Shown piece by piece: positions 41,473 through 52,949 of a DNA stretch of 64,000 nucleotides (position 1 is its first letter; the number at the start of each line of letters is the position of its first letter). The notes under the pieces were generated by a model. It searched no databases. It saw only the letters and a list, made by a program, of their open reading frames with translations, and had not been told where the DNA came from. The stretch spans positions 15,074 to 79,073 of the forward strand of contig DYJE01000019.1 of the NCBI GenBank assembly GCA_020723285.1. Direction: 5' to 3'. Origin of the DNA: Desulforapulum autotrophicum. GTDB taxonomy: Bacteria; Desulfobacterota; Desulfobacteria; Desulfobacterales; Desulfolunaceae. The translations under genes were made by a program, and so were the position numbers.

Positions 41473-42009
41473 TTAAAGCCAGAACTCCGGATACCGCCTG
41501 CTTTTCGGCAGATTGTTCACCAGAAGGGCCACGAGAACCATAATGACCGCACCCATCCCCACGGGAACCACGGCGTAGAGATACCCCAGTGCGTGAATTT
41601 TTGAACTTCCGGTGACGGCGATCAGCGCTGTTGCACCACCCGGCGGATGGAGGGTTTTTGTGGCATGCATAAACGCGATGGCCGTTGCCACGGCAAGGGG
41701 AGAGGCAAACCACAGGTGGTTATGAAACAATTTGAATGCGGTGACTCCGACTATCGCGGAAATAATATGGCCGCCGATAACGTTTCTCGGCTGGGCCAGG
41801 GGGCTTCGAATCGCACCATAGACAAGCACGGCACTTGCCCCGAACGATCCGATGATCATAACAAGGTCACTTGTGTAGAACAGTTTGTCATCCAGATACG
41901 CCATGGGGATGATTCCCAAAAAAGCGCCGATCCATGACCAGAATATTTCAGAGACTTTAACACCCGGCGGGCTTTGGGTCGTTCCCTTCATTTTCGAGAA
42001 GTACTGCAT
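41473..42009 (-). CDS. HPP-family membrane protein (candidate nitrite channel/transporter)
   Basis: HPPGGATAL signature and 4-5 TM helices. Confidence 0.75.
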   Translation of the reverse strand: MQYFSKMKGTTQSPPGVKVSEIFWSWIGAFLGIIPMAYLDDKLFYTSDLVMIIGSFGASAVLVYGAIRSPLAQPRNVIGGHIISAIVGVTAFKLFHNHLWFASPLAVATAIAFMHATKTLHPPGGATALIAVTGSSKIHALGYLYAVVPVGMGAVIMVLVALLVNNLPKSRRYPEFWL

Positions 42010-42021
42010 GGCTGATTCCTT

Positions 42022-42630
42022 TCAAACATTATCTAGGCCGAAGGATTGCACGATATCCGAACGGGTTACGATGCCGCAGAGGTCTGAATTTTTATCAAGG
42101 ACCGGAACACGGTTGATTTTCTGGCAGTTAAAAATGGCCGCTATTTCGGAAAGCGGGGTGTTTTCATTTACCGTGATGGCTGGAGTTGTCATGATATCGC
42201 CGACCTTGCGGGTGTTTAACGAAGAGATCATGCAGCCGCTGTGATTCATGCACCGGGATAAGATGGCCATGAACGACTGGTTAACAGAGATACCGGCTTC
42301 GCGTAAAATATCTTTCTCAGAAAGAACCCCCACCACCTTGGAAAAAACATCCATCACCGGCAGACCGGTGATATTGTTTTCAGCCATGGTTCCCGCCGCG
42401 TCGCCAAGAAGGGCATCGATCCGGGTGTAAATCACCGGCCGACTCATGACATCTTTGGCTGTGCGTTTATTTGCCAAACGATTCAGCGCATGATGATAGG
42501 ATACTTTGTATATTTCGATGAAGTCTGCTGGTGTAATATCAATATATCCGTCAATCGCGGACATGGCTTCAAGAATATCCGCCTCTGAAATATCAATAGA
42601 GGATTGTTTGAACGTTTTTTCTGAATCCAT
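42022..42630 (-). CDS. CBS-pair domain protein
   Basis: Two CBS repeats (VMSRPVIY...ITGLPVMD and IMTTPAITV...INRVPVLD). The ATG at 42630 follows AAGGA. The track start at 42717 lies inside the predicted -10 hexamer. Confidence 0.75.
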   Translation of the reverse strand: MDSEKTFKQSSIDISEADILEAMSAIDGYIDITPADFIEIYKVSYHHALNRLANKRTAKDVMSRPVIYTRIDALLGDAAGTMAENNITGLPVMDVFSKVVGVLSEKDILREAGISVNQSFMAILSRCMNHSGCMISSLNTRKVGDIMTTPAITVNENTPLSEIAAIFNCQKINRVPVLDKNSDLCGIVTRSDIVQSFGLDNV

Positions 42631-42740
42631 GTTTATCCTTTTTAAGTTTTTTCCAATTTGGAGTTTGGTTTTTTTAGTAGAAGCGTCATAATTCAACAAT
42701 AATGCACGGTAGATCATAGTCGCATTAGCTTGTATTGTAT

Positions 42741-42754
42741 TTGACTTAAATCAA
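42741..42754 (-). promoter_or_regulatory. CRP/FNR-family box (minus-strand reading TTGATTTAAGTCAA), promoter-proximal copy
   Basis: Differs from the hcp box at one central base. It is followed after exactly 22 nt by TATGAT (42718-42713). Confidence 0.6.
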
Positions 42755-42793
42755 TTTGGGGAAGAATCAGTGTCGCATTAGCTTGTATTGTAT

Positions 42794-42807
42794 TTGACTT
42801 AAATCAA
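42794..42807 (-). promoter_or_regulatory. Second, duplicated copy of the CRP/FNR-family box
   Basis: An identical 14-mer in the second 53-bp unit. The downstream hexamer there is ACTGAT. Confidence 0.5.
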
Positions 42808-42905
42808 TTTGGGGAAGAATCAGTCAGGGAACACTCTGAAGCTGAATACAGTTATTGCAAATAGAATGCGAGTTTAAATAGGTCTTGGTTCATAATGGCT
42901 AAAAA

Positions 42906-43598
42906 CTAATGATGGTTGAATATTATTTTCAATACCTTTGGAATAAAAAAAGAACCGATAAAAAGAAATACCGATAAGAAGACGTTCCAGTTCAAAAGGC
43001 CGCTCAGGTCACCGCTGGCTAAAACGTTTTTAACCGTCCCCACGAAAAAAGTGAACACAAAAGTCCCCACGATAATCCCCAGAGCCGTTCCCGCAGTGTA
43101 ATCCCTGAAACGGACTTTTGTGAGGCCCATGCCGAAGTTCATGGGCGTGAAAGGGAAATACACCAGACGAAGGTAAAGAACCGTGGCAAAACCGTTGCGT
43201 TCAATGGCGTCGTCGTACTGTTTCAGTTTTCCGCCGATGAGGCTTTCCGCGAAATCCCGGCCCAGGTAACGCCCGATGAAAAAGGCGAGGCTTGCGCCGA
43301 TCATGGCCCCGGTCCAGACCCAGAGGAACCCCCAATAAGGGCCGAACACGGCAGCCCCGATGGCGGCGAGCAGGGTGCCCGGAAGAAAAAGGCAGACCCC
43401 CGCCGCATAAATCAGGACATAAACAAGGGGAGCCCACAACCCGGCAGAGTCAAGAAGAAGGGCGAGCCGTTCTGCCGTCACATGGTTTTTAAGGGGTGAA
43501 AAACGGAGCAGCGTCACCGCCGCGATCATAAAGCAAACGAGAAGCGCCGCTTTGATCCATGGCCGTTTGGCCCTTTGTTTCACATTGAGATCAGGCAT
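42906..43598 (-). CDS. TVP38/TMEM64 (DedA-related) family membrane protein
   Basis: Multi-TM protein whose sequence (FLPGTLL, GRYLGRDF) I recognise as typical of the family. Confidence 0.7.
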   Translation of the reverse strand: MPDLNVKQRAKRPWIKAALLVCFMIAAVTLLRFSPLKNHVTAERLALLLDSAGLWAPLVYVLIYAAGVCLFLPGTLLAAIGAAVFGPYWGFLWVWTGAMIGASLAFFIGRYLGRDFAESLIGGKLKQYDDAIERNGFATVLYLRLVYFPFTPMNFGMGLTKVRFRDYTAGTALGIIVGTFVFTFFVGTVKNVLASGDLSGLLNWNVFLSVFLFIGSFFIPKVLKIIFNHH

Positions 43599-43610: not shown

Positions 43611-43928
43611 TTATTTTCCAAGAATTCGGTTCAAAAGCCCTTTTTTTTCGAGATGGGGTTCGGGAAGCCCGAGATGTCGGCAGATGCAGACTTCGACCTC
43701 GTGTTCGGAGATGTCGGCCCCTTCGACAACGACTTCGTCCCCCACCATGACCGCCGGGGCTACCGGAAGATCCAGATCGAAGTATTCGTCAGTCTGGTAC
43801 TCATCCTTGGGTTTGGATGTCACGGTGATGTCAACGTCATACTTTCCGCCCAGCCTGGGCATCATCTTTTTGAAGTTCTTTCAAGGTCTTCCGTTGGGTT
43901 CATTCAGAAAAAAACGGATATTCAGCAT
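43611..43928 (-). CDS. Candidate small thioredoxin-fold selenoprotein (in-frame TGA at 43881-43883)
   Basis: Strong RBS AAGGAGAACACC-ATG at 43928. Reads MLNIRFFLNEPNGRP-U-KNFKKMMPRL... in frame with the track ORF 43611-43865, which itself has no RBS. The C-terminal LPVAPAVMVGDEVVVEG resembles the cis-Pro/beta3-beta4 region of small thioredoxin-like proteins. Confidence 0.6.
43848..43860 (-). other. SECIS-like hairpin GCCCA-GGC-UGGGC, 20 nt after the UGA
   Basis: Read directly from the minus strand. Confidence 0.4.
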
Positions 43929-43940
43929 GGTGTTCTCCTT

Positions 43941-45704
43941 TTATGGTTTTGTGCTTTCTTTCGAAATGCGGTTCATGTGGACCAGGAATTTTTCAGGGGG
44001 TAAATAATCCACCAGCCTCAGATCATTTCGTTCCTCACCGGCAGAATCGAGGAACACCAGGGTGGGGACGCCCTTGATGCCGTACTGTTTAAGCAACTGT
44101 TCGTGATTCGGATCGCCACCCTGGGTTACATCAACTTTGACCATGGTGAACGTGTCTTTTGTTTTTCTGACCACGTCGGGGTGGTGGAACGTCACCGTGT
44201 CAAGTTCGCGGCACGGGGTGCACCAGTCGGCGTAAAAATCAATGATGACAGGGCGTTTTTCTGCTGCGGCTTTTTGAAGAACAGCCTCGGAGTATGGCTG
44301 CCAGGCTACACCTGGTCCTTTCATCATCCATGCGGTGATCCACATCGAAGCGGTGATAAGACACACACAACCAGTGGCGGCTTTGACAATTGAGAACACC
44401 TTCGACCCTGTTTCTGTTTTTTCCAGCCAGCCCAGGTGAATGCCAGCGGATAATGCGAGGGCCGCAGGCAGAAGAACTTTCAGCCCTTCGGGGAGGACTG
44501 GTCGGATGAAATGGGCCGCCATGCCCACAAGAACCCAGCCCATGAGTTTTCGGACCCAGATCATCCAGCCGCCTGCGCGGGGAAGTCGTTGAAGCTGACC
44601 GGAGAAGAGGGCAAGGATGAAAAGGGGAAGCCCTAGTCCAAGGCTCAATGTGAAAAATACAAGAAAACCCATGAAGGCGCTGCCCATACCTGCCACCCAG
44701 GTCAGAAGTCCCAGCACAAAGGGACCGATGCAGGGGGCGGCAACAACGCCGATGGTCAGCCCCATGAACAGGCTTCCGAAATAGCCGCTGTACGAGCGAC
44801 CGGCCATCCGGGTCATGGCTCCGGGCAGGCGAAGTTCCCAGAATCCGAAAAGACTGGTGGAGAACAGGATGAGAAAACCAGCGACAAAAGAAAGCACCAG
44901 GGGATTCTGGAGCATTGACCCCATCAGGCCGCCGGTCAGGGCCGCAGCCACCCCAAGGATGGAATTGGTGAGGGCGAGGCCCAAAAGGTAGCAGAGGCCG
45001 TGGAGAACAAGGACAAACTGACCTGGCCTGCTGTCGGCTGTTTTGCCTCCAAAAAACGACACAGTGATGGGGATCATGGGATAGACACACGGGGTTAAAT
45101 TCAGGGCGAGACCGCCGAAAAAGATGCCCAGAAGCGTGAGAAAAAGGCCCCAGCCTTTGACAGACCTTCCGGAATACGATCCCGATGCATCTTTCGGTGA
45201 CAGGGCAAGATCCACGGGGGTTGTTCCATAGGGCATGCCACGCTGCTGCCATTCTGGGAAACCATAGGGATCGCGGTAAACGTGACGGTAACCGAGTTTA
45301 ACGGCCACACGGGCCGCCGAGTCGCTGCGGACTCATGTAAGGCCCGCTCAGTAGAACACAATGCCCCGGTTTTTGTCCGGACCCAGAAATTTCCCGAGGG
45401 ATTCAGACTTACGCCACCTGGCCCACCCGGTGGGTTCCATGGGGAAATTCACCGCGCCCTTCATGTGGCCGGTCCGGAATTCCCATTCCTGGCGAGTGTC
45501 CACCAGAAGCAAACCGGACGGATTCTCCCGGTATTTTTGAATGAGTTCGTCGGTTTTAAGGATCGTGTAGCCGCCCCTTGCCGCCTCGGCGAGCACATCG
45601 TCCCATGTGGCCTGTTTCGGTGTGGCCGGGCGCTGGATAGACCAGACGGAAGCCACCGCAACGGCCACTGCGAGTAACGTCAGTAAAAAGGATGTTTTTT
45701 TCAT
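43941..45704 (-). CDS. Candidate selenoprotein: signal peptide - rhodanese (Y-U-AGLT-U-VRS) - DsbD/CcdA membrane domain - thioredoxin fusion, with two in-frame TGA codons (45348-45350 and 45333-45335)
   Basis: Track ORFs 45348-45704 and 43941-45308 are in the same frame, separated only by TGA-GCG-GGC-CTT-ACA-TGA. The rhodanese fold continues across both TGAs (IVFY|U|AGLT|U|VRSDSAARVAVKLGYRHVYRDPYGFPEWQQRGMPY). The DsbD-beta motifs TPCVYPMIP and AAPCIGPF and the C-terminal WCTPC thioredoxin motif are present. Confidence 0.65.
45302..45316 (-). other. SECIS-like hairpin after the second rhodanese UGA
   Basis: CGGCC-CGUGU-GGCCG starting 16 nt after the UGA. It overlaps the lower stem of the previous structure, so the two are alternative folds. 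Confidence 0.35.
45311..45345 (-). other. SECIS-like stem-loop after the first rhodanese UGA
   Basis: GGGCC-UUACAU-GAGUC-CGCAGC-GACUC-GGC-GGCCC. The upper stem starts 13 nt after the UGA. Confidence 0.4.
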
Positions 45705-45730: not shown

Positions 45731-46060
45731 TTAGTGAGTCCAGTCCATGATCTTGAAATCTTCACCCAGTTTTTTTTGAACAGCATCCCGGATCATTGAA
45801 AAATGTGGGCAAGGCATACCGATTGGGTTTCCCTTTGAAATGCATGATGCAAAAACAATAGCTTCGGCCCCACGATCAACCATGAGTTTTGCCCTTTGAA
45901 TGGATCGTTTGCCTGGACATCCGCCACAACTGACAAAACCTATGATTTCAACCGGTCCGGTGGCTTCAAACGCCATTTTCCCAGTGGAAGCGACTTTAAA
46001 ATCCGTCGTACCGGGGCACATATCCTCGGTCTGTTGACACCTGATAATTCCAACTTTCAT
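45731..46060 (-). CDS. CGGC-domain protein
   Basis: VSCGGCPGKR signature plus additional conserved Cys residues. RBS AGGAGA. Confidence 0.7.
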   Translation of the reverse strand: MKVGIIRCQQTEDMCPGTTDFKVASTGKMAFEATGPVEIIGFVSCGGCPGKRSIQRAKLMVDRGAEAIVFASCISKGNPIGMPCPHFSMIRDAVQKKLGEDFKIMDWTH

Positions 46061-46063
46061 CGA

Positions 46064-46726
46064 TCATCTCCTAAGTGTATTTTCAAACAAAAGAGTCACA
46101 AAACCTTCGTCCAGCGATTCTTTTCCAAGTTCATTCATGCCTTCTGGGGGCGGTAGAATGCTGGATTGTTCCTTTCTGAACAAGAAACCGGCTTCCTCTG
46201 CCATGGCTTTGACCTCATCCCTTTGATAGAATCTGGCGTGTCTGTAAATAACATGCCCTTTCTTGCCTCTTGCGGAATGGTACAGCCCCCAGGCGCTGTT
46301 TGACGGAACAAAGCCGATGATAAGGCGTCCCCGCCTTTTGAGCACACGGCTGCATTCACGAAGCACCCGTAAAGGATCATGGAGAAAGCAGAGGGTGCAC
46401 ACCATCAGCAGTCCGTCAAAAGAAGTATCTTTGAACGGCAGGTGTTCTCCCATGGCCTGGCAGGTCATAATGCCCCTACTGGACGCGATCATTGCCATGG
46501 ATCGCGAAGGCTCCACACTATGGCCGATGCCGAATGCCTGAGCGAAACGTCCTGAACCCGAACCCACCTCCAGCCATTTTCCCGTCGGGACCCCGAGGAT
46601 CTGATTCAGGGCTTCACGTTCCTGTGAAAAAATGAAAGACCCTTTTTCAGAGTCAAACCAGTGGTCGTATTCTTCCGCAAAATCGTCAAAAGGGTTGTTC
46701 CAAATCGACATGCCGCACGATTCCAC
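46064..46726 (-). CDS. Class I SAM-dependent methyltransferase
   Basis: Motif I LEVGSGSGRF and a Methyltransf_11-like layout. The start may instead be the ATG at 46711. Confidence 0.75.
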   Translation of the reverse strand: MESCGMSIWNNPFDDFAEEYDHWFDSEKGSFIFSQEREALNQILGVPTGKWLEVGSGSGRFAQAFGIGHSVEPSRSMAMIASSRGIMTCQAMGEHLPFKDTSFDGLLMVCTLCFLHDPLRVLRECSRVLKRRGRLIIGFVPSNSAWGLYHSARGKKGHVIYRHARFYQRDEVKAMAEEAGFLFRKEQSSILPPPEGMNELGKESLDEGFVTLLFENTLRR

Positions 46727-46728
46727 GA

Positions 46729-47037
46729 TTACCCCCGTCCCCAGAGCGGATCGTCACCGAACCGTTCTTGCCAAAGTTCTTCGGGAGTCAGGTTTTCACC
46801 CACGGACACTTCGGAAAAAGAAAAACGATAATTGGCGCAGTACTCCGTGATGGTCTTGTACGCGGCCACGATCTTTCTGGTCATGTCCGCACAAGTTTCC
46901 GGGTTGTCCCGACATCGGTCCGGATGCCATTTCGCCAGCATGGCCCGGTACGCCGATTTGACGGTTTTCAGGCTGGCTGTTTCAGGAAGACCAAGGATCG
47001 TCCGCGCTTCCGTGATCTCCTGGTATTTTTTCAGCAT
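46729..47037 (-). CDS. J-domain (DnaJ-like) protein
   Basis: LGLPETASLKTVKSAYRAMLAKWHPDR, including the HPD tripeptide. Confidence 0.75.
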   Translation of the reverse strand: MLKKYQEITEARTILGLPETASLKTVKSAYRAMLAKWHPDRCRDNPETCADMTRKIVAAYKTITEYCANYRFSFSEVSVGENLTPEELWQERFGDDPLWGRG

Positions 47038-47492
47038 GATTCGTCCCGTCGTCCTTCCCGCTCAAGCTTCGATATCATAAACGTCGCGCCTCTTTGGGAC
47101 AGCCCCAGGGTTTCGGCCAGGGTTTTCACATCCAGCGAACCCTTCTCTCGCCTGAGCGAAAGGACTTCGTCCTCAAGTTCCTCGAACCAGTCCTCGAACA
47201 GGACAAGCAGGTCCGGGTCGGTTATGGCCGACAACTGCCTGGATTGGGCCACTTTGTCCACCAGACTCTGGCACATCTTTGTTGGGTCGATACCTTCGCC
47301 CATGCATTCAGCGATTCAGAGGTGGACCATTCCGGACATCTTGTCATCGCCAGAATCGTCCAGAAGATTCATGAAAAACCGAGTTGCCGCGTCTTTGTCC
47401 ATCACTGAGAAAAGCTTTTTCAGCGTACTTCCGATGTCCTTCAGCGCCTGTTCCGGGTCCATGTTTTCGACGATGTTCAGAATATTTTTCAT
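47031..47492 (-). CDS. Candidate selenoprotein with a U-x3-C motif (in-frame TGA at 47316-47318) and a winged-helix-like C-terminus
   Basis: RBS AAGGAAG precedes the ATG at 47492. 58 codons are followed by TGA and then IAEC-MGEG..., in frame with track ORF 47031-47303, which has no RBS. The gene starts 19 nt after the arsR stop. Confidence 0.6.
47284..47301 (-). other. SECIS-like hairpin GGGCGA-AGGUA-UCG(A)CCC, 14 nt after the UGA
   Basis: Read directly. It has a GGU-containing apical loop and a single bulged A. Confidence 0.4.
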
Positions 47493-47511: not shown

Positions 47512-47847
47512 TTAAAACGTCTTCCGTGCTTTCAACAGATCTTCCGCCACGGTGTTCAGCGACCGGATCACGTCCAGTATTTTTTTGTCTGCCAGCTCGT
47601 AAAAAACAAAAGGGCCGCTTCGTTCTACATTTAATAGAATCGACCGTTTCAATTCCTTGAGATGATGCGACACAAGAGGCTGTGAAATACCAATTTCTTC
47701 CACGATCTGACCCACGGATTTCTTGCCTTGGCCAACGTAAAGCAAAATACGTAGTCGGTTTGGATCGGAAAGGGATTTAGCCAACAGAGAAACGCATTGA
47801 AGATAATCGTCATTTAGCATTTTTGCTTTCTTGATCAAAAAAATCAT
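47512..47847 (-). CDS. ArsR/SmtB-family transcriptional regulator
   Basis: DPNRLRILLYV...VGQIVEEIGISQPLVSHHLKELK winged-HTH signature. The canonical ELCVCDL metal-binding site is absent. Confidence 0.85.
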   Translation of the reverse strand: MIFLIKKAKMLNDDYLQCVSLLAKSLSDPNRLRILLYVGQGKKSVGQIVEEIGISQPLVSHHLKELKRSILLNVERSGPFVFYELADKKILDVIRSLNTVAEDLLKARKTF

Positions 47848-48074: not shown

Positions 48075-48249
48075 TTTTCACACAAAGCGTGATTCGGGAT
48101 AGGAGTTTTCACGATTCCGGTGGTAAATTTCACACAAAGCGTGATTCGAAAATTAAGCTTTTACGATCACAGATTTTTTTGATAATCGGATTTGCACGAT
48201 CCGGGAAAGAGCAGTTTGCACGGCTACAACGAAAAGTTTTCACGATTCC
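48075..48249 (+). repeat. Array of seven same-orientation TTT(T/G)CAC(G/A)-type repeats at the right edge of the insert
   Basis: Copies start at 48075, 48106, 48128, 48159, 48191, 48215 and 48237, spaced 22-32 bp apart. 48075-48127 and 48128-48180 form an imperfect 53-bp tandem. The last copy supplies the new fdhA stop codon. Confidence 0.7.
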
Positions 48250-50864
48250 CAGCAGTTACCTTCCCTGAAATGAAACGCCATCCACACCATGCCGGCCGGA
48301 ACTTCGTCGGTGATCCGGGCTTTGACCGAAACAGCGCCGCGCCGTGAGGAAACCCTGATGACCTCCCCGTCGGCGATGCCCATGCGACGGGCATCATCGG
48401 CCGAGATGTCGGCGGTCTCCTCACCGAGAAGCTCGTTCAGCCCTTGGGTTCTGCCGGTCTGGGTCCGGGTGTGGTAATGGTACAGGCGTCGGCCTGTGGA
48501 GAGAACCAAGGGGTATTCCGTGTCCGGCACTTCCGCAGGCGGGGTCCACACTGCCGGGGTGATGTTGCCTTTGCCGCAGGTGAAATTCCCGTTCAGGTGG
48601 AGAATGGCCGTACCGGGGTGTTCTTTGGTCGGACAGGGCCACTGGAGGCCGTCTCCCTCGATCCGCCCAAACGTGATTCCGGCGAAAATCGGGCAGAGCG
48701 CGGCGATCTCCCTGTCCCAGATGTCCTTGGAACTGGCGGAGGTCCAGGTGTGGCCCATGCGTCTTGCAATCTCCCGGAATATCCACCAGTTGGGCCGAGC
48801 CTGGCCCGGCGCGGGACAGGCTGCCCTAACGCGGCTCACCCTGCGCTCGCAGTTGGTGAACGTGCCGTCATCCTCGCTCCAGGCCGCAGACGGAAACACC
48901 ACATGGGCGAACCGTGTGGTTTCCGTTTCGAAGATATCCTGGCAAACCAGGAATTCCGCGCTGGAGAGTTCATGTTCCACCTTGGCGATATGGGGTTCCG
49001 CGCTGGCCAGGTTTTCGCCGAAAATGTACAGCGCCCGGATCTTCTTCGTCACCAGCCCTTCGAGCATCTGGGGGATCATCAGGCCGTTTTTATCCGGAAG
49101 GTCCTGAACGTTCCATGCGTCTTCGAATTTTTTCCGGGCTGCTGCGTCGGTCACGCTCTGGTATCCGGGAAACACGTTGGGCAGCGCCCCCATGTCACAG
49201 GCTCCCTGCACGTTGTTCTGCCCGCGTAAGGGATTCACCCCGCCGCATTCCACGCCCAGGTTCCCCAGAAGCATCTGGAGATTGGCCACCGACGCCACGT
49301 TGTCGCGGCCGCAGGTGTGTTCGGTGAGGCCCAGGGTGTACATCAGCATCATGGGTTTCACCGATGCGGCCATACGGGCTGTCCTGACAATCAGATCGCT
49401 GGGAATGCCACAGATTTCAGCCGCTTTTTCCGGCGTGTAATCCATGACGGTTTCCCTGAGTTTTTCAAAGTTCACCGTGTGGTTTTCGATGAATGCCTTG
49501 TCGTACAGGTTTTCCGTGATGAGGACGCGCATCACGCCGTTCAGAAACGCGATGTCCGTGCCCACTTTGATCTGGACGAACAGGTCGGCAAACCGGGCCA
49601 GGGTGTGTTTTCTCGGATCGACCACAATCAGTTTCGCACCCTGACGCACAGCGTTCTTGACAAACGTCGACGCCACGGGATGGGCCTCGGTCATGTTGGC
49701 TCCGATGACAAAGAACATCTTGGCGTTTTTCACTTCCTTCAGGCTGTTGGTCATGGCCCCGGATCCGAAGGTGGTGGCGAGCCCGGCCACGGTGGGCGCG
49801 TGGCAGACCCTGGCGCAGTGGTCGATGTTGTTGGTCTTGAACACGGCCCTGAACAGCTTCTGCATCTGGTAGGAATCTTCGTTGATGCTCCGGGCGCAGC
49901 TGACCCCGGCCACGGCATCCGGCCCATGCTCGGCAATGATCCGTGAGAAGGTGGACGCCACAAGATCAAGGGCCTCGTCCCAGGACGCGGGTTCAAGCAC
50001 GCCGTTTGTCCGGATCAGCGGGGTTTTCAGGCGGTCTGGGGAACTGATGAAATCATAGCCGAAACGCCCTTTGACACACAGGCGGCCCTGGTTGGGTTCG
50101 GCATTTTCCACGGCTGAAATATGAACGATTTTTCCATTCTTCACATGAAGCATCTGCTGGCAGCCCACCCCGCAGTACGGGCAGGTGGTTCTGACGCTTT
50201 GGGTCTCGCACAGCCGGGGCTTCTGAAAAGCGTCTTTCGGGACCAGAGCGCCGACGGGACAGGCCTGGATGCACTGGCCGCAGAACACACAGTCCGAATC
50301 CTTGAGGGCCATGTCGCCCTTGGCGATGATTTTCGTTTTCGCCCCACGGTATCCGAAGTCGATGGCGTCGTTCACCTGGATTCCCCGGCAGGCCTGGACA
50401 CACCGGCCGCAGAGAATGCATTTGGCGAAATTGCGAACGATCAGGGGGTTTACCGCTTCCATGGGGTAGGACGTGCGGGTGTCCGGGTATCTTCCGCCCT
50501 TGACCTGATAGCGGTAAGCCAGCTCCTGAAGCCGGCAGCCTCCGGACGCCGGGCAGACGAGACAGTCGTCGTGTCTGCCTGATGAAAGCATCAGTTCGAC
50601 GATGGTCTTTCGGGACTGGATGACCACCGGGGAGTCGGTACGGACCACCATACCTTTGGCCGCCGGAACAGTGCAGGCCGTCATCAGACTTCGCGCGCCC
50701 TCGACCTCCACCACGCAGATCCGGCAGGCCCCCGTGGGTGTGGTGTCTTTCAGGTGGCAAACCGTAGGGATGTCTATACCCGCGTTGCGGGCGGCTTCAA
50801 GTATGGTCTGACCCGGACTGAACACCACGTCCCGGCCGTTGATCACCAACAGGTTTTCGCTCAT
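48240..50864 (-). CDS. fdhA: Formate dehydrogenase alpha subunit (NuoG-like Fe-S N-terminus plus molybdopterin domains), Cys-type, 3'-truncated by insertion
   Basis: 2Fe-2S and 4Fe-4S motifs at the N-terminus. The active-site region HCARVCHAPTVAGL has Cys where Sec-type enzymes have U. The protein ends ...MAFHFREGN-CWES-stop and lacks the conserved NxLT...PEFK.CAV..EK tail, which is found at 32004-32102. Confidence 0.85.
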   Translation of the reverse strand: MSENLLVINGRDVVFSPGQTILEAARNAGIDIPTVCHLKDTTPTGACRICVVEVEGARSLMTACTVPAAKGMVVRTDSPVVIQSRKTIVELMLSSGRHDDCLVCPASGGCRLQELAYRYQVKGGRYPDTRTSYPMEAVNPLIVRNFAKCILCGRCVQACRGIQVNDAIDFGYRGAKTKIIAKGDMALKDSDCVFCGQCIQACPVGALVPKDAFQKPRLCETQSVRTTCPYCGVGCQQMLHVKNGKIVHISAVENAEPNQGRLCVKGRFGYDFISSPDRLKTPLIRTNGVLEPASWDEALDLVASTFSRIIAEHGPDAVAGVSCARSINEDSYQMQKLFRAVFKTNNIDHCARVCHAPTVAGLATTFGSGAMTNSLKEVKNAKMFFVIGANMTEAHPVASTFVKNAVRQGAKLIVVDPRKHTLARFADLFVQIKVGTDIAFLNGVMRVLITENLYDKAFIENHTVNFEKLRETVMDYTPEKAAEICGIPSDLIVRTARMAASVKPMMLMYTLGLTEHTCGRDNVASVANLQMLLGNLGVECGGVNPLRGQNNVQGACDMGALPNVFPGYQSVTDAAARKKFEDAWNVQDLPDKNGLMIPQMLEGLVTKKIRALYIFGENLASAEPHIAKVEHELSSAEFLVCQDIFETETTRFAHVVFPSAAWSEDDGTFTNCERRVSRVRAACPAPGQARPNWWIFREIARRMGHTWTSASSKDIWDREIAALCPIFAGITFGRIEGDGLQWPCPTKEHPGTAILHLNGNFTCGKGNITPAVWTPPAEVPDTEYPLVLSTGRRLYHYHTRTQTGRTQGLNELLGEETADISADDARRMGIADGEVIRVSSRRGAVSVKARITDEVPAGMVWMAFHFREGNCWES

Positions 50865-50897
50865 GGATCGGTTCTCCTGCTCAACGAATATTGGGGT

Positions 50898-52832
50898 TTA
50901 TGTGTGACAAACCTCCGCAAGAATCCGTAAATCCCCGTTCCGTACCGTGAATCCCACAGAATCCAGGTATTCGAAAACAGGGACGGACGTGCTGCGGCTG
51001 TTTCCCGTAATCTCTTGACAATCGGCCAGGCAGACACTCCCGTGATTCAGGATGTGGCCTTTAACCCGTGTTTTGATGCGTTCCATCGTCCTTACGCTGA
51101 TGAACCGGTTGTTGTTCAGCTTGACCAGCAGATTCAGGCTGTGGAGAAAATAGCTCATCCGCCTGACCTTGTCTTCGTTCCAGGGTCCCTCGGTCTCCCG
51201 GCAGAACCGGCTGACACTGAACGGAACGGAACCCGACTGTTCCGCATAACCCAGAAGCCGCGCCTTCAGGCGTTCTTCGTCATCGGTGAGGGTGATGGAA
51301 AACCCCGGAACAGTATACCCGCCCTGGCTGCGGATCAGGCGGCCTTTTCCGCAGAGCGCCCGGACCGCCTCCTGAATCAGGTCCATGGAAACGGGGCGGT
51401 CCAGCGCGTCGCGGATCTCGTTTGAATTCACCTGACTTTTCAGGGATCCCTGCTCCACTGTCCGCCGTGCGGCGTGATACACCCGCTCCACGAGCTCCGG
51501 GACATAATCGGACAGGTACACGCCACCATCGCCGGTTTTCATGACCGTTCTGTCCGCCTGTTTTCTGTTGAACGCTTCGCGGATCCGTTCAAGGGAAAAA
51601 CCGGACCGCGCCGCAAGGTCCTGTGCGAAAACCGGTGCGTTCACCGACTGAACAAGAACGGCGTCGACAAAACCTTCGGCATCATCGGACTGAAGTGCAT
51701 CGAGAACGGGGAGTATCCGCCCGGCGCGGTTTTCCGTGTATTTTTCCACCGGAATTTCAAGAATGACACCGCCTCCGATGATCCGGTTCCGGTTCATCAG
51801 GGCCACGACAAAGCGGTCTCGGGGATCAATGCTCACAGGCTCGGAAAACCGGAACTGAACAAACGCGCGGTTTCCGGGGTGTATCCCCTGCTGTTTCATC
51901 ACCACAGCCACAGCGTTCACACACAGGGTTCCGATGTACAGTTTGACCCGCATCCGGTTGTTCAGCGGGGTTCCGGCCGAAGCAAGAACACGCACATCGG
52001 CGTTGGCCAGCGAGGATACGACCCCGGTGCCGGGTTGCCTGAGACTCATGCCCCGGCATACATCCGTGAGGGTGGTTTTGTTGAGATTGATCCCTATGCG
52101 CTGCCCCGCTGCGGCATGATCCACCCGGACGCCATGGGATTCAAGAAACCGCGCCCGTGTTTTCAGGCCCGAAGGCATGATCTCCACCTGCTCGTCCCGG
52201 TTCAGCGTTCCTGACAGCACCGTTCCGCTGACCACCGTTCCAAATCCACTGATTCCGGTGATCCGGTCGATCCACAGACGGAACGGCCGGAGATGGCTCC
52301 GGCATGCCATGCGGCAGGCCTCTTTCATGATGCTGTCCCGGATCTGAGCGGACCCTGAAAGGTCCATGGCGGAAAAGGCCACGACCTCCTTTCCCTCAAG
52401 AAAACTACCATGGATCAGCTCACGGATTTCCAGTTCAGCCAGCTCCAGCGTTTCATCGTCCACAAGATCGGATTTGGTCAGGACCACCAGTCCGCCTTTG
52501 GCGCTGAAAAATTTCAGTATTTCAAGATGTTCCACGGTCTGAGGCATCACCCCGTCGTCCGCGGCCACGATCAGCAGGGCCAGATCCACGCCGCTCAGTC
52601 CGCGCACCGTATTCCGAAGAAAATCCGTATGGCCGGGGACATCCACCAGGGCCAGACTGATCCCGTTTTCGGAAAGCCAGGATGCGATGCCCGACTCCAT
52701 GGACATGCCGCGCCGCTGTTCTTCTTTCATCCGGTCTGTGTCAACGCCGGTAAGGCACCGGACCAGGGTGGTTTTCCCATGATCCACATGCCCGGCGACA
52801 CCGATGGTGATATATTGCGTCATATCGTTCAA
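50898..52832 (-). CDS. selB: Selenocysteine-specific translation elongation factor SelB
   Basis: GTPase motifs AGHVDHGKTTL and DVPGH, the TKSD box, and a long C-terminal winged-helix extension. It is adjacent to tRNA-Sec. Confidence 0.9.
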   Translation of the reverse strand: MNDMTQYITIGVAGHVDHGKTTLVRCLTGVDTDRMKEEQRRGMSMESGIASWLSENGISLALVDVPGHTDFLRNTVRGLSGVDLALLIVAADDGVMPQTVEHLEILKFFSAKGGLVVLTKSDLVDDETLELAELEIRELIHGSFLEGKEVVAFSAMDLSGSAQIRDSIMKEACRMACRSHLRPFRLWIDRITGISGFGTVVSGTVLSGTLNRDEQVEIMPSGLKTRARFLESHGVRVDHAAAGQRIGINLNKTTLTDVCRGMSLRQPGTGVVSSLANADVRVLASAGTPLNNRMRVKLYIGTLCVNAVAVVMKQQGIHPGNRAFVQFRFSEPVSIDPRDRFVVALMNRNRIIGGGVILEIPVEKYTENRAGRILPVLDALQSDDAEGFVDAVLVQSVNAPVFAQDLAARSGFSLERIREAFNRKQADRTVMKTGDGGVYLSDYVPELVERVYHAARRTVEQGSLKSQVNSNEIRDALDRPVSMDLIQEAVRALCGKGRLIRSQGGYTVPGFSITLTDDEERLKARLLGYAEQSGSVPFSVSRFCRETEGPWNEDKVRRMSYFLHSLNLLVKLNNNRFISVRTMERIKTRVKGHILNHGSVCLADCQEITGNSRSTSVPVFEYLDSVGFTVRNGDLRILAEVCHT

Positions 52833-52857
52833 TAACCATCCGTTATAGTGGCATCAA

Positions 52858-52949
52858 TGGAAGGGGCAAGGGGAATCGAACCTCCTCTTTGCGTTTCAGG
52901 CAAAGCCGACGGTTTTGAAGACCGCGGGGCGCCCAGCACCATTGCCCCT
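52858..52949 (-). tRNA. selC: tRNA-Sec (anticodon UCA)
   Basis: 92 nt with anticodon loop CUUCAAA, a long variable arm (CGGCUUUGCCUGAAACGCAAAGAGG), T-loop GGTTCGATTCC, an 8-bp acceptor stem AGGGGCAA/TTGCCCCT and an encoded CCA. Folded by eye only. Confidence 0.8.

What the first reader, a model, noticed from the sequence alone, without database searches (positions are those of the whole stretch)
43941..45704. Rhodanese-DsbD(CcdA)-thioredoxin fusion with a putative U-x4-U active-site loop
Seen: a signal peptide and the first two-thirds of a rhodanese domain end in IVFY-TGA. Then AGLT-TGA follows in the same frame. The same frame continues directly into VRSDSAARVAVKLGYRHVYRDPYGFPEWQQRGMPY, which is the expected C-terminal third of a rhodanese fold. 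After that come a DsbD-beta/CcdA membrane core (TPCVYPMIP, AAPCIGPF) and a WCTPC thioredoxin. The first TGA occupies the catalytic-Cys position after the beta-strand. Established: DsbD moves electrons from the cytoplasm through its beta domain to a periplasmic thioredoxin-like gamma domain and then to its alpha domain. Inference: here a Sec-containing rhodanese takes the place of the alpha domain. That would give a periplasmic (per)selenide/persulfide-handling module reduced across the membrane. Two Sec residues four positions apart in a bacterial protein would be very unusual.
Basis: partly seen in the sequence, partly recalled or inferred. Interest (0 to 1): 0.9.

Follow-up and report, generated by a model that had tools for sequence, protein, structure and literature searches.

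The report
TsoB: known double-selenocysteine rhodanese–DsbD fusion
This gene really does encode a membrane protein with two selenocysteines four residues apart in a rhodanese loop fused to a DsbD-type electron conveyor, but it belongs to the TsoB family already published in 2025 and curated by NCBI, so it is a correct rediscovery and not a new finding.

Summary
One minus-strand reading frame (45704 to 43941) carries two in-frame TGA codons, at codons 119 and 124. It encodes a signal anchor, a rhodanese domain, a DsbD-type membrane core and a DsbD-gamma-like thioredoxin domain.

Both TGAs are present in 80 of 80 related loci from different Desulfobacterota species. The four codons between them vary freely at synonymous sites. 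Rare Sec-free full-length homologues carry C-x4-C at the same positions. The window also holds tRNA-Sec and SelB.

Synonymous variation is suppressed just after the second TGA. Two adjacent hairpins lie there, and the second has compensatory base changes.

[quoted passage not shown] A 2026 review lists TsoB with motif UxxxxU and two Sec, citing Haft & Tolstoy 2025. TsoR, TsoA and TsoC are also in the window.

Function is untested. The best inference is a DsbD-like electron relay ending on a U-x4-U redox pair in the periplasm. Novelty: already known. Interest: low to moderate.

The parts
43941..45704 (-). tsoB coding sequence: 587 aa plus stop, with two in-frame TGA (Sec) codons
   Evidence: Translation. 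NCBIfam NF045694 seleno_TsoB scores 950.8 bits against a cutoff of 805 and covers residues 6-580.
45636..45692 (-). N-terminal hydrophobic signal peptide or signal anchor (residues 5-23)
   Evidence: Hydropathy peak of 2.24. Modelled as an N-terminal helix in the homologue.
45243..45542 (-). Rhodanese domain (residues 55-154), spanning both TGAs
   Evidence: Pfam PF00581, E 9.6e-12. Alignments to PDB rhodaneses. Foldseek hits to 6mxv, 2hhg and 1qxn.
45348..45350 (-). UGA-1, Sec119, at the canonical rhodanese catalytic-Cys position
   Evidence: TGA in 80/80 loci. Aligns with the catalytic Cys of 6mxv, 2hhg and 3d1p. Cys in homologues P0274-P0276 and P0278.
45333..45335 (-). UGA-2, Sec124, in a two-residue insertion of the active-site loop, just before Arg126-Ser127
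   Evidence: TGA in 80/80 loci. Cys in P0177, P0274-P0276 and P0278. TGA also in a relative with the C-x4-U form, L081.
45318..45335 (-). Hairpin 1 (alignment columns 16-33): a 6-bp stem whose 5' arm contains UGA-2, with loop CGNAGY. Candidate SECIS for UGA-1.
   Evidence: 97.5% of cells paired, with one double change (A19-U30 in L002). The Val codon's third base at column 21 is restricted to C or U. RNAalifold did not predict it.
45301..45317 (-). Hairpin 2 (alignment columns 34-50): a 6-bp stem with loop C-G-K-G-U. SECIS for UGA-2, and possibly for both UGAs.
   Evidence: 99.4% of cells paired. Pair 36:48 occurs as GC 62, AU 11, GU 4, CG 1, UA 1. The four-fold sites at columns 39 and 45 are invariant.
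44493..45137 (-). DsbD-beta-type membrane core (residues 190-404) with Cys206 (TPCVYP, codon 45087-45089) and Cys325 (AAPCIGP, codon 44730-44732)
   Evidence: Pfam PF02683, E 6.9e-40. NF001419 DsbD aligns residues 188-580. Cysteine positions.
44046..44306 (-). DsbD-gamma-like thioredoxin domain (residues 467-553) with W-C495-T-P-C498 (codons 44220-44222 and 44211-44213)
   Evidence: Pfam Thioredoxin_7, Thioredoxin_2 and Thioredoxin. In the homologue model the best structural matches are DsbD-gamma entries 1uc7, 2fwg and 1vrs, with target TM-scores near 0.8.
43611..43928 (-). tsoC, a NEPxGxxU-motif selenoprotein (Sec TGA at 43881-43883), immediately downstream of tsoB
   Evidence: Motif scan. 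NF045708 scores 148.8 bits against a cutoff of 45. Found downstream of tsoB in 68/80 loci.
47031..47492 (-). tsoA, a LULAxC-motif selenoprotein (here L-U-I-A-E-C; Sec TGA at 47316-47318)
   Evidence: Translation. NF045695 scores 218 bits against a cutoff of 170. Found upstream of tsoB in 61/80 loci.
47512..47847 (-). tsoR, an ArsR/SmtB-type regulator
   Evidence: NF045707 scores 151 bits against a cutoff of 115. Found upstream of tsoB in 64/80 loci.
52858..52949 (-). tRNA-Sec (anticodon UCA)
   Evidence: ARAGORN. Rfam RF01852 scores 51.1 bits.
50898..52832 (-). selB-like gene (644 aa, Sec-specific elongation factor), adjacent to tRNA-Sec
   Evidence: ORF listing. Identified from the GTPase N-terminus and its position next to tRNA-Sec. 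No family search was run on it.

Best explanation
The gene is tsoB, the rhodanese/DsbD fusion-like selenoprotein of the 'three selenoprotein operon' (tsoR-tsoA-...-tsoB-tsoC) of Desulfobacterota. Both in-frame UGAs are read as selenocysteine, giving an active-site loop F-Y-U119-A-G-L-T-U124-V-R-S.

Shown here:
- U119 is at the canonical rhodanese catalytic position. U124 lies in a two-residue loop insertion.
- Cys-type homologues have C-x4-C at these positions.
- RNA-level constraint starts directly after UGA-2 and covers two adjacent hairpins, each 12-15 nt downstream of one UGA.

Inferred from homology with E. coli DsbD (established pathway: cytoplasmic thioredoxin, then the beta-domain Cys pair, then the gamma-domain CxxC, then the alpha-domain Cys pair):
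- Electrons pass from the cytoplasm through Cys206/Cys325 in the membrane core to W-C495-T-P-C498 in the periplasmic thioredoxin domain.
- They then reach a U119-U124 diselenide (or a selenenyl adduct) in the periplasmic rhodanese domain, which stands where the DsbD alpha domain normally is.

More speculative:
- U119 captures a small chalcogen or metalloid substrate, such as sulfane sulfur, polysulfide, or a Se or As species.
- U124 resolves the adduct and releases the reduced product.
- The relay then re-reduces the Se-Se bond.
For: Identity: NF045694 TsoB scores 950.8 bits against a cutoff of 805. TsoA, TsoC and TsoR all score above their cutoffs in the same window. The same neighbours occur in 61-68 of 80 loci. 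A review table lists TsoB with motif UxxxxU and 2 Sec.

Sec decoding: both TGAs are present in 80/80 species, with synonymous variation between them. The window holds tRNA-Sec and a SelB-like ORF. Cys/Sec pairs exist at both positions.

SECIS: entropy at four-fold sites is 0-1.0 bit at columns 21-48, against 1.1-2.0 bits in the flanks. Hairpin 2 shows covariation with four Watson-Crick pair types. Hairpin 1 is 97.5% paired. A distant C-x4-U relative keeps a hairpin at the hairpin-2 position with a different sequence.

Relay: DsbD_TM and thioredoxin domains are present. DsbD-gamma entries are the best structural matches. The hydropathy profile is compatible with the eight-helix DsbD beta topology: six segments pass the threshold and two more are read by eye. 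The rhodanese domain follows an N-terminal signal anchor.
Against: There is no experimental evidence here or in the papers I could read that either UGA is decoded, or for any substrate. Hairpin 1 lacks the loop GU typical of SelB-binding SECIS elements in most sequences, and RNAalifold did not predict it, so one SECIS may serve both UGAs. A diselenide is much harder to reduce than a disulfide (general chemistry), so a dithiol thioredoxin domain may not be its natural reductant. Some Sec-free homologues have lost the first position (P0177, G-x4-C) or both (P0277, P0272, P0273), so a two-residue redox pair is not universally required. The regulator is annotated as a metalloregulator, which fits metal or metalloid binding as well as it fits sulfur chemistry.
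Confidence: 0.85

Rival explanations
1. A single SECIS (hairpin 2, 45317-45301) directs Sec insertion at both UGAs. Hairpin 1 is not a SelB-binding element; it is conserved for another reason, such as ribosome pausing or codon context.
For: Hairpin 2 is the only element that RNAalifold predicted independently and that has clear compensatory changes. Its loop carries invariant G41 and G43-U44. The loop lies 36 nt after UGA-1 and 21 nt after UGA-2. Both distances fall within the 16-37 nt range used by bacterial SECIS search models (recalled, not tested). The hairpin-1 loop (CGCAGC) has no GU in most sequences.
Against: Synonymous sites inside hairpin 1 are also constrained: column 21 is C or U only, and column 33 is 74/81 pairing-competent. 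L002 shows a compensatory A19-U30 change. In E. coli the UGA-to-SECIS spacing is strict (recalled). The C-x4-U relative L081, which has no first UGA, lacks hairpin 1, though that is a single case.
Confidence: 0.35
2. The U-x4-U loop is mainly a binding or transfer site for a soft metal or metalloid (Hg, As, Sb, Te, Cd) and not a catalytic redox pair. The DsbD part only keeps it reduced, and the operon is a metal or metalloid handling system.
For: TsoR belongs to the ArsR/SmtB metalloregulators, with secondary hits to CmtR (Cd/Pb) and BigR. A SAM methyltransferase with weak arsenite-methyltransferase-like hits lies between tsoA and tsoB here, and methyltransferase homologues are found within the flanks retrieved for 8/80 loci and methyltransferase genes lie next to the Cys-type homologue L083. 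The review groups Tso with other newly described selenoprotein systems from the same authors.
Against: No metal-transport or classic resistance gene is conserved in the neighbourhood. Rhodanese domains are typically sulfur or selenium transferases or arsenate reductases, not chelators (general knowledge). ArsR-family members also sense persulfides.
Confidence: 0.25
3. The gene is a decaying pseudogene or two separate genes: a 118-aa rhodanese fragment and a 455-aa DsbD-like protein starting at the GTG at 45308.
For: This is how gene callers split it. Databases hold hundreds of fragments of about 121 aa and about 445-450 aa.
Against: Both TGAs and the frame are conserved in 80/80 species. The four codons between them and the roughly 10 codons before the putative internal start show amino-acid-level purifying selection. 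The Pfam rhodanese match spans the TGAs. Cys-type homologues are uninterrupted 578-591 aa proteins.
Confidence: 0.02

Closest known systems
TsoB, rhodanese/DsbD fusion-like selenoprotein (NCBIfam NF045694; Haft & Tolstoy 2025, mSystems 10:e0141724, as cited in PMC13188914)
   Same: Full-length HMM match above the curated cutoff, UxxxxU motif with two Sec, the same domain order, and the same operon partners TsoA, TsoC and TsoR.
   Different: Nothing essential. In this window three extra genes (J-domain, SAM methyltransferase, CGGC-domain) sit between tsoA and tsoB, which is rare among the 80 loci. TsoA here reads LUIAEC where the family motif is LULAxC.
E. coli DsbD (alpha-beta-gamma thiol:disulfide interchange protein)
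   Same: Membrane core with two conserved Cys, and a C-terminal periplasmic thioredoxin domain with CxxC. NF001419 aligns residues 188-580. The gamma domain is the best structural match.
   Different: The immunoglobulin-like alpha domain with its Cys103/Cys109 pair is replaced by a rhodanese domain with U-x4-U. The DsbD model score of 246.8 bits is below its cutoff of 330.
Single-domain rhodaneses and the periplasmic polysulfide-sulfur transferase Sud of Wolinella (PDB 1qxn), plus 6mxv and 2hhg
   Same: Rhodanese fold, with the catalytic residue directly after the beta-strand ...VFY. Sud is also periplasmic.
   Different: Sec replaces Cys. The loop is two residues longer (U-X6-R-S against C-X4-R-S) and holds a second Sec. 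The domain is covalently tethered to a reductant conveyor.
Cys-type and mixed relatives: C-x4-C fusions (P0274-P0276, P0278), C-x4-C stand-alone rhodaneses (P0270, P0252), C-x4-U stand-alone periplasmic rhodaneses (P0246/L081)
   Same: Same extended loop, [C/U]-x4-[C/U]-x-R-S.
   Different: One or both positions are Cys. The fusions are rare: about 10 non-Sec full-length proteins among the 120 best hits, against more than 100 Sec-type C-terminal fragments.
Eukaryotic SelL (UxxU, forms a diselenide) and other multi-Sec bacterial proteins listed in PMC13188914 (MbdU, ArsM fusions)
   Same: Two closely spaced Sec residues that could form a diselenide. This is recalled for SelL; the multi-Sec bacterial proteins are in the review table.
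   Different: Different fold, spacing and decoding system. In bacteria each UGA needs a SECIS in the coding sequence immediately downstream.

Membership tests
TsoB (NF045694) | Full-length HMM score above NCBI's curated cutoff | tested here: met
   950.8 bits against a cutoff of 805, E 1.8e-286, residues 6-580 aligned to profile positions 3-571 of 572.
TsoB (NF045694) | UxxxxU motif: two in-frame UGA codons in the rhodanese loop | tested here: met
   TGA at 45350-45348 and 45335-45333. The same pattern occurs in 80/80 loci. The motif is listed in the review table.
TsoB (NF045694) | Domain order rhodanese, DsbD membrane core, thioredoxin | tested here: met
   Pfam domains. About 66 of 80 loci encode the same fusion of about 580 aa.
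TsoB (NF045694) | Operon context with TsoA and TsoC (three selenoprotein operon) | tested here: met
   TsoA scores 218 bits, TsoC 148.8 bits and TsoR 151 bits, all above their cutoffs. Conserved synteny.
TsoB (NF045694) | Actual incorporation of selenium at both positions | not testable with these tools
   Requires mass spectrometry or 75Se labelling. The host has tRNA-Sec and a SelB-like gene in the window.
DsbD (protein-disulfide reductase) | Beta membrane domain with two essential Cys, and a gamma thioredoxin domain with CxxC | tested here: met
   PF02683, E 6.9e-40. Cys206, Cys325 and C495-x-x-C498. DsbD-gamma is the top structural match.
DsbD (protein-disulfide reductase) | N-terminal immunoglobulin-like alpha domain with a Cys pair, and a score above the DsbD model cutoff | tested here: not met
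   The N-terminal domain is a rhodanese. NF001419 scores 246.8 bits, below its cutoff of 330, and aligns only from profile position 169.
Rhodanese sulfurtransferase (PF00581) | Rhodanese fold with a nucleophile at the start of the active-site loop | tested here: met
   PF00581 scores 45.7 bits against a cutoff of 22.2. U119 aligns with the catalytic Cys of 6mxv, 2hhg and 3d1p.
Rhodanese sulfurtransferase (PF00581) | Canonical loop length (Cys, four residues, then Arg/Thr-Ser) | tested here: not met
   HMMER alignments place a two-residue gap in 6mxv, 2hhg and 3d1p opposite TsoB residues in A-G-L-T-U-V.
Bacterial SECIS | Stem-loop in the coding sequence shortly downstream of each UGA, conserved beyond the coding constraint | tested here: met
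   Hairpin 1 starts 12 nt after UGA-1 and hairpin 2 starts 15 nt after UGA-2. Synonymous-site entropy collapses over columns 21-48. Pair 36:48 covaries.
Bacterial SECIS | Loop G/GU recognised by SelB, and SelB binding itself | tested here: inconclusive
   The hairpin-2 loop has invariant G41 and G43-U44. The hairpin-1 loop has invariant G23 but a GU only where column 27 is U (about 20 of 81 sequences). Binding cannot be tested here.

The most novel reading that the evidence does not exclude
The two UGAs may be served by a tandem, hand-over SECIS arrangement. Hairpin 1 carries UGA-2 inside its own 5' stem arm and recodes UGA-1. The ribosome then melts it, which brings UGA-2 into the A site just as hairpin 2 reaches the SECIS position. 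I could not read the primary paper, so I do not know whether this RNA architecture has been described. Separately, TsoB may be the first DsbD-type conveyor whose terminal acceptor is a diselenide that reduces a small-molecule chalcogen or metalloid in the periplasm, not a protein disulfide.
Probability: 0.35. Interest if true: 0.55.

Novelty: already known. Interest (0 to 1): 0.3.

Why it matters
As a discovery it adds little. The family, its two-Sec motif and its operon are already in NCBIfam and in the 2025-2026 literature.

The case still has some value. It is a clean positive control for the scan, because a reader working from raw sequence recovered a real double-Sec gene and predicted the C-x4-C Cys homologues correctly. 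The biology is also experimentally untouched. Two Sec codons 15 nt apart test how bacterial SelB and SECIS handle consecutive recoding events. A DsbD relay feeding a selenium-based rhodanese site in sulfate-reducing and sulfur-disproportionating bacteria could be a new route of periplasmic sulfur, selenium or metalloid reduction. The comparative RNA data assembled here (81-sequence alignment, covariation, synonymous-site entropy) give concrete mutations to test.

Tried and rejected
(1) Pseudogene or split gene: rejected on conservation.

Its 5' arm varies freely at synonymous sites without compensation, and single-sequence folding z-scores were only -0.9 to -1.3.

(3) Testing whether Cys-type homologues have lost the hairpins: inconclusive. 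L083 (C-x4-C) still forms both hairpins and L084 has one mismatch in each, so these look like recent Sec-to-Cys conversions with fossil SECIS elements.

I instead searched with the N-terminal profile and modelled the natural C-x4-C homologue P0278.

(5) The primary paper (Haft & Tolstoy 2025, PMC12013261) is not in the held library. Its content is known only through the review PMC13188914. The BSepDB paper cites it but does not mention TsoB.

(6) A crude scan of the window for further TGA read-through genes produced only noise and missed the known ones because of overlapping spurious ORFs. It was abandoned. The TsoX motif HSGNPxU is absent from the window.
Full report
**What is in the sequence.** The feature lies on the minus strand. 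Translating 45704 down to 43941 gives one continuous frame of 589 codons. It is interrupted only by two TGA codons, at codon 119 (45350-45348) and codon 124 (45335-45333), and ends at a TAA. The local peptide is ...NRGIVFY-U-AGLT-U-VRSDSAARVAVKLGYRHVYRDPYGFPEWQQRGMPY....

With U written as C, Pfam finds three regions:
- a rhodanese domain at residues 55-154 that runs across both TGAs;
- a DsbD/CcdA membrane domain at residues 190-404;
- thioredoxin-like domains at residues 467-574.

Hydropathy shows an N-terminal signal anchor at residues 5-23 and a polytopic core. The conserved cysteines are C206 (TPCVYP), C325 (AAPCIGP) and C495/C498 (WCTPC).

**Is it more than chance?** Yes, decisively.

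A protein search with the N-terminal 220 residues returned 426 homologues. The 120 listed are nearly all about 121-125 aa. Of the 13 I retrieved, 11 end in (V/I)FY, which means gene callers stopped at the same TGA; P0003 (frameshifted) and P0008 (chimeric) are the exceptions.

A scan of one genome per GTDB species found 332 loci. I retrieved the best 80, which come from Desulfobacteraceae, Desulfobulbaceae, Syntrophobacteraceae, Desulfarculus and related groups. All 80 read TGA-NNN-GGN-YTN-NCN-TGA and then continue in frame as VRSDSAARVAV.LGY..YRDP.G.P.W. Between the two TGAs, Gly uses all four of its codons and Leu all six, while the amino acids stay fixed. That pattern is the signature of a translated peptide.

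About 66 of the 80 loci run on to the same fusion of about 580 aa. The others are contig ends or frameshifted MAG assemblies.

The window itself carries tRNA-Sec at 52949-52858 (ARAGORN and Rfam). Next to it is a 644-aa ORF that I read as SelB.

**Cys/Sec pairs.** Rare uninterrupted full-length homologues exist:
- P0274, P0275, P0276 and P0278 have FY-C-x4-C-xRS.
- P0177 has G-x4-C.
- P0277, P0272, P0273 and P0196 have lost both residues.

Stand-alone relatives show C-x4-C (P0270, P0252). One shows C-x4-TGA followed in frame by LRSSIAARRAARLGY (P0246 in L081).

Alignments to solved rhodaneses (6mxv, 2hhg, 3d1p) place U119 on the canonical catalytic Cys. They also show that the TsoB loop is two residues longer, with U124 in the insertion just before the conserved Arg-Ser.

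**RNA signals.** I aligned 81 nt from UGA-1 in the window and the 80 loci. All sequences were distinct and the alignment has no gaps.

Third-base entropy at four-fold degenerate sites is 1.1-2.0 bits in the flanks and between the two UGAs. It drops to 0-1.0 bit at columns 21-48, and to zero at columns 39 (GCC) and 45 (GUG). There is therefore a constraint beyond the coding one, and it begins right after UGA-2.

Two adjacent hairpins fit this region:
- **Hairpin 2** (columns 34-39 pairing with 45-50, window 45317-45301, loop C-G-K-G-U) was predicted independently by RNAalifold. It is 99.4% paired. Pair 36:48 occurs as GC 62, AU 11, GU 4, CG 1 and UA 1.
- **Hairpin 1** (columns 16-21 pairing with 28-33, window 45335-45318) contains UGA-2 in its 5' arm. 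It is 97.5% paired, with one double compensatory change and several wobble transitions. RNAalifold did not pick it, and its loop lacks a GU in most sequences.

The stems begin 12 nt after UGA-1 and 15 nt after UGA-2, close to the 11-nt spacing I recall for the minimal E. coli SECIS. A distant C-x4-U relative keeps a hairpin at the hairpin-2 position with a different sequence and lacks hairpin 1 (a single case).

I favour tandem SECIS elements. A single shared SECIS (hairpin 2) is a serious rival.

**What it is.** NCBIfam gives the answer directly. [quoted passage not shown] The neighbours fit the same system:
- The gene just downstream (43928-43611, TGA at 43883-43881) is NF045708, NEPxGxxU-motif selenoprotein TsoC.
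- 47492-47031 (TGA at 47318-47316, motif L-U-I-A-E-C) is NF045695, TsoA.
- 47847-47512 is NF045707, the ArsR/SmtB regulator TsoR.

[quoted passage not shown] It describes the Tso "three selenoprotein operon" and cites Haft & Tolstoy 2025. I could not obtain the primary paper.

Synteny across the 80 loci confirms the core tsoR-tsoA-tsoB-tsoC, present in 61-68 loci and limited mainly by contig ends. A VTT/DedA-like membrane protein lies downstream in 28 loci. The J-domain, methyltransferase and CGGC genes found between tsoA and tsoB in this window are rare insertions.

**How it most likely works.**

Shown:
- The C-terminal two-thirds are homologous to the DsbD beta and gamma domains. NF001419 aligns residues 188-580 to profile positions 169-572.
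- An AlphaFold model of the C-x4-C homologue P0278 has mean pLDDT 80, with most 10-residue blocks of the rhodanese and thioredoxin domains above 90. Its thioredoxin domain matches DsbD-gamma structures best, and its N-terminal domain matches rhodaneses including the periplasmic polysulfide-sulfur transferase Sud.

Inferred from the established DsbD pathway:
- Reducing equivalents from cytoplasmic thioredoxin cross the membrane via C206/C325.
- They reach C495/C498 in the periplasm.
- They are delivered to the N-terminal domain, where U119/U124 take the place of the DsbD-alpha cysteine pair.

Speculative:
- U119 captures sulfane sulfur or a Se, Te or As species.
- U124 resolves the adduct to a diselenide.
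- The relay regenerates the selenols.

A binding role for metals or metalloids is a reasonable rival, given the ArsR/SmtB regulator and the occasional neighbouring methyltransferases.

**Verdict.** The feature is an ordinary member of a family that is already published and curated, so novelty is "already known" and interest is low to moderate. What remains open is experimental: proof of double Sec insertion, the mechanism for two UGAs 15 nt apart, and the substrate.

Noticed in passing
window 43611-43928 (-): A second selenoprotein gene lies directly downstream of tsoB: MLNIRFFLNEPNGRP-TGA-KNFKKMMPRLGGKYDV.... It matches NCBIfam TsoC (NEPxGxxU). Gene callers would report only the 84-aa C-terminal ORF. 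Many related loci carry two TsoC-like copies in tandem.
   Followed up: partly
window 47031-47492 (-): A third selenoprotein gene, tsoA. Here the motif is L-U-I-A-E-C where the family name gives LULAxC. Its C-terminal part gives weak winged-helix (MarR / Fe-dependent repressor) hits, hinting at a DNA-binding or sensor role.
   Followed up: partly
window 45731-47037 (-): Three genes are inserted between tsoA and tsoB: a J-domain protein, a SAM methyltransferase (weak DVU_1556-family and arsenite-methyltransferase-like hits) and a CGGC-domain protein. In most species tsoA lies about 320 nt upstream of tsoB. Homologues of these inserts are near tsoB in only 4, 8 and 1 of the 80 loci.
   Followed up: partly
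window 48240-52949 (-): tRNA-Sec, a SelB-like gene and an 874-aa formate-dehydrogenase-alpha-like gene lie just upstream of the Tso cluster. The FDH-like protein reads ...IDHCARVCHAPTVAGL..., i.e. Cys where, from memory, Sec-type FDHs carry U. No family search was run on SelB or the FDH-like protein.
   Followed up: no
L081:1282-1800 (+): A stand-alone periplasmic rhodanese with IIYCRSFR-TGA-LRSSIAAR (C-x4-U). It lies after another rhodanese gene and near a TorD-like chaperone (Nitrate_red_del) and an FmdE/MoCF-biosynthesis gene. Many fragments of about 123 aa ending in YCRSFR (P0197, P0238, P0244-P0267) suggest a sizeable related selenoprotein family. Whether it matches one of the listed 'rhodanese forms 1-4' was not checked.
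   Followed up: partly
L083:4001-5737 and L084:606-2342: Cys-type (C-x4-C) full-length TsoB homologues still carry nearly the same nucleotide sequence and hairpins downstream of the former UGA positions. They look like fossil SECIS elements from recent Sec-to-Cys conversion. L083 has no TsoA or TsoC neighbours called, but it does have methyltransferases and a flavin reductase nearby.
   Followed up: partly
L057/L062, L030/L069, L013/L052: Some MAGs carry two tsoB paralogues on different contigs. L062 has substitutions that break hairpin 2 (A36, A37) and changes in the conserved SAAR motif, so it may be a diverging or decaying copy.
   Followed up: no
window 41473-43598 (-): Downstream of tsoC lie a VTT/DedA-like membrane protein (conserved next to the operon in 28/80 loci), then a CBS-domain protein and an HPP-family membrane protein (neither conserved with the operon).
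   Followed up: partly
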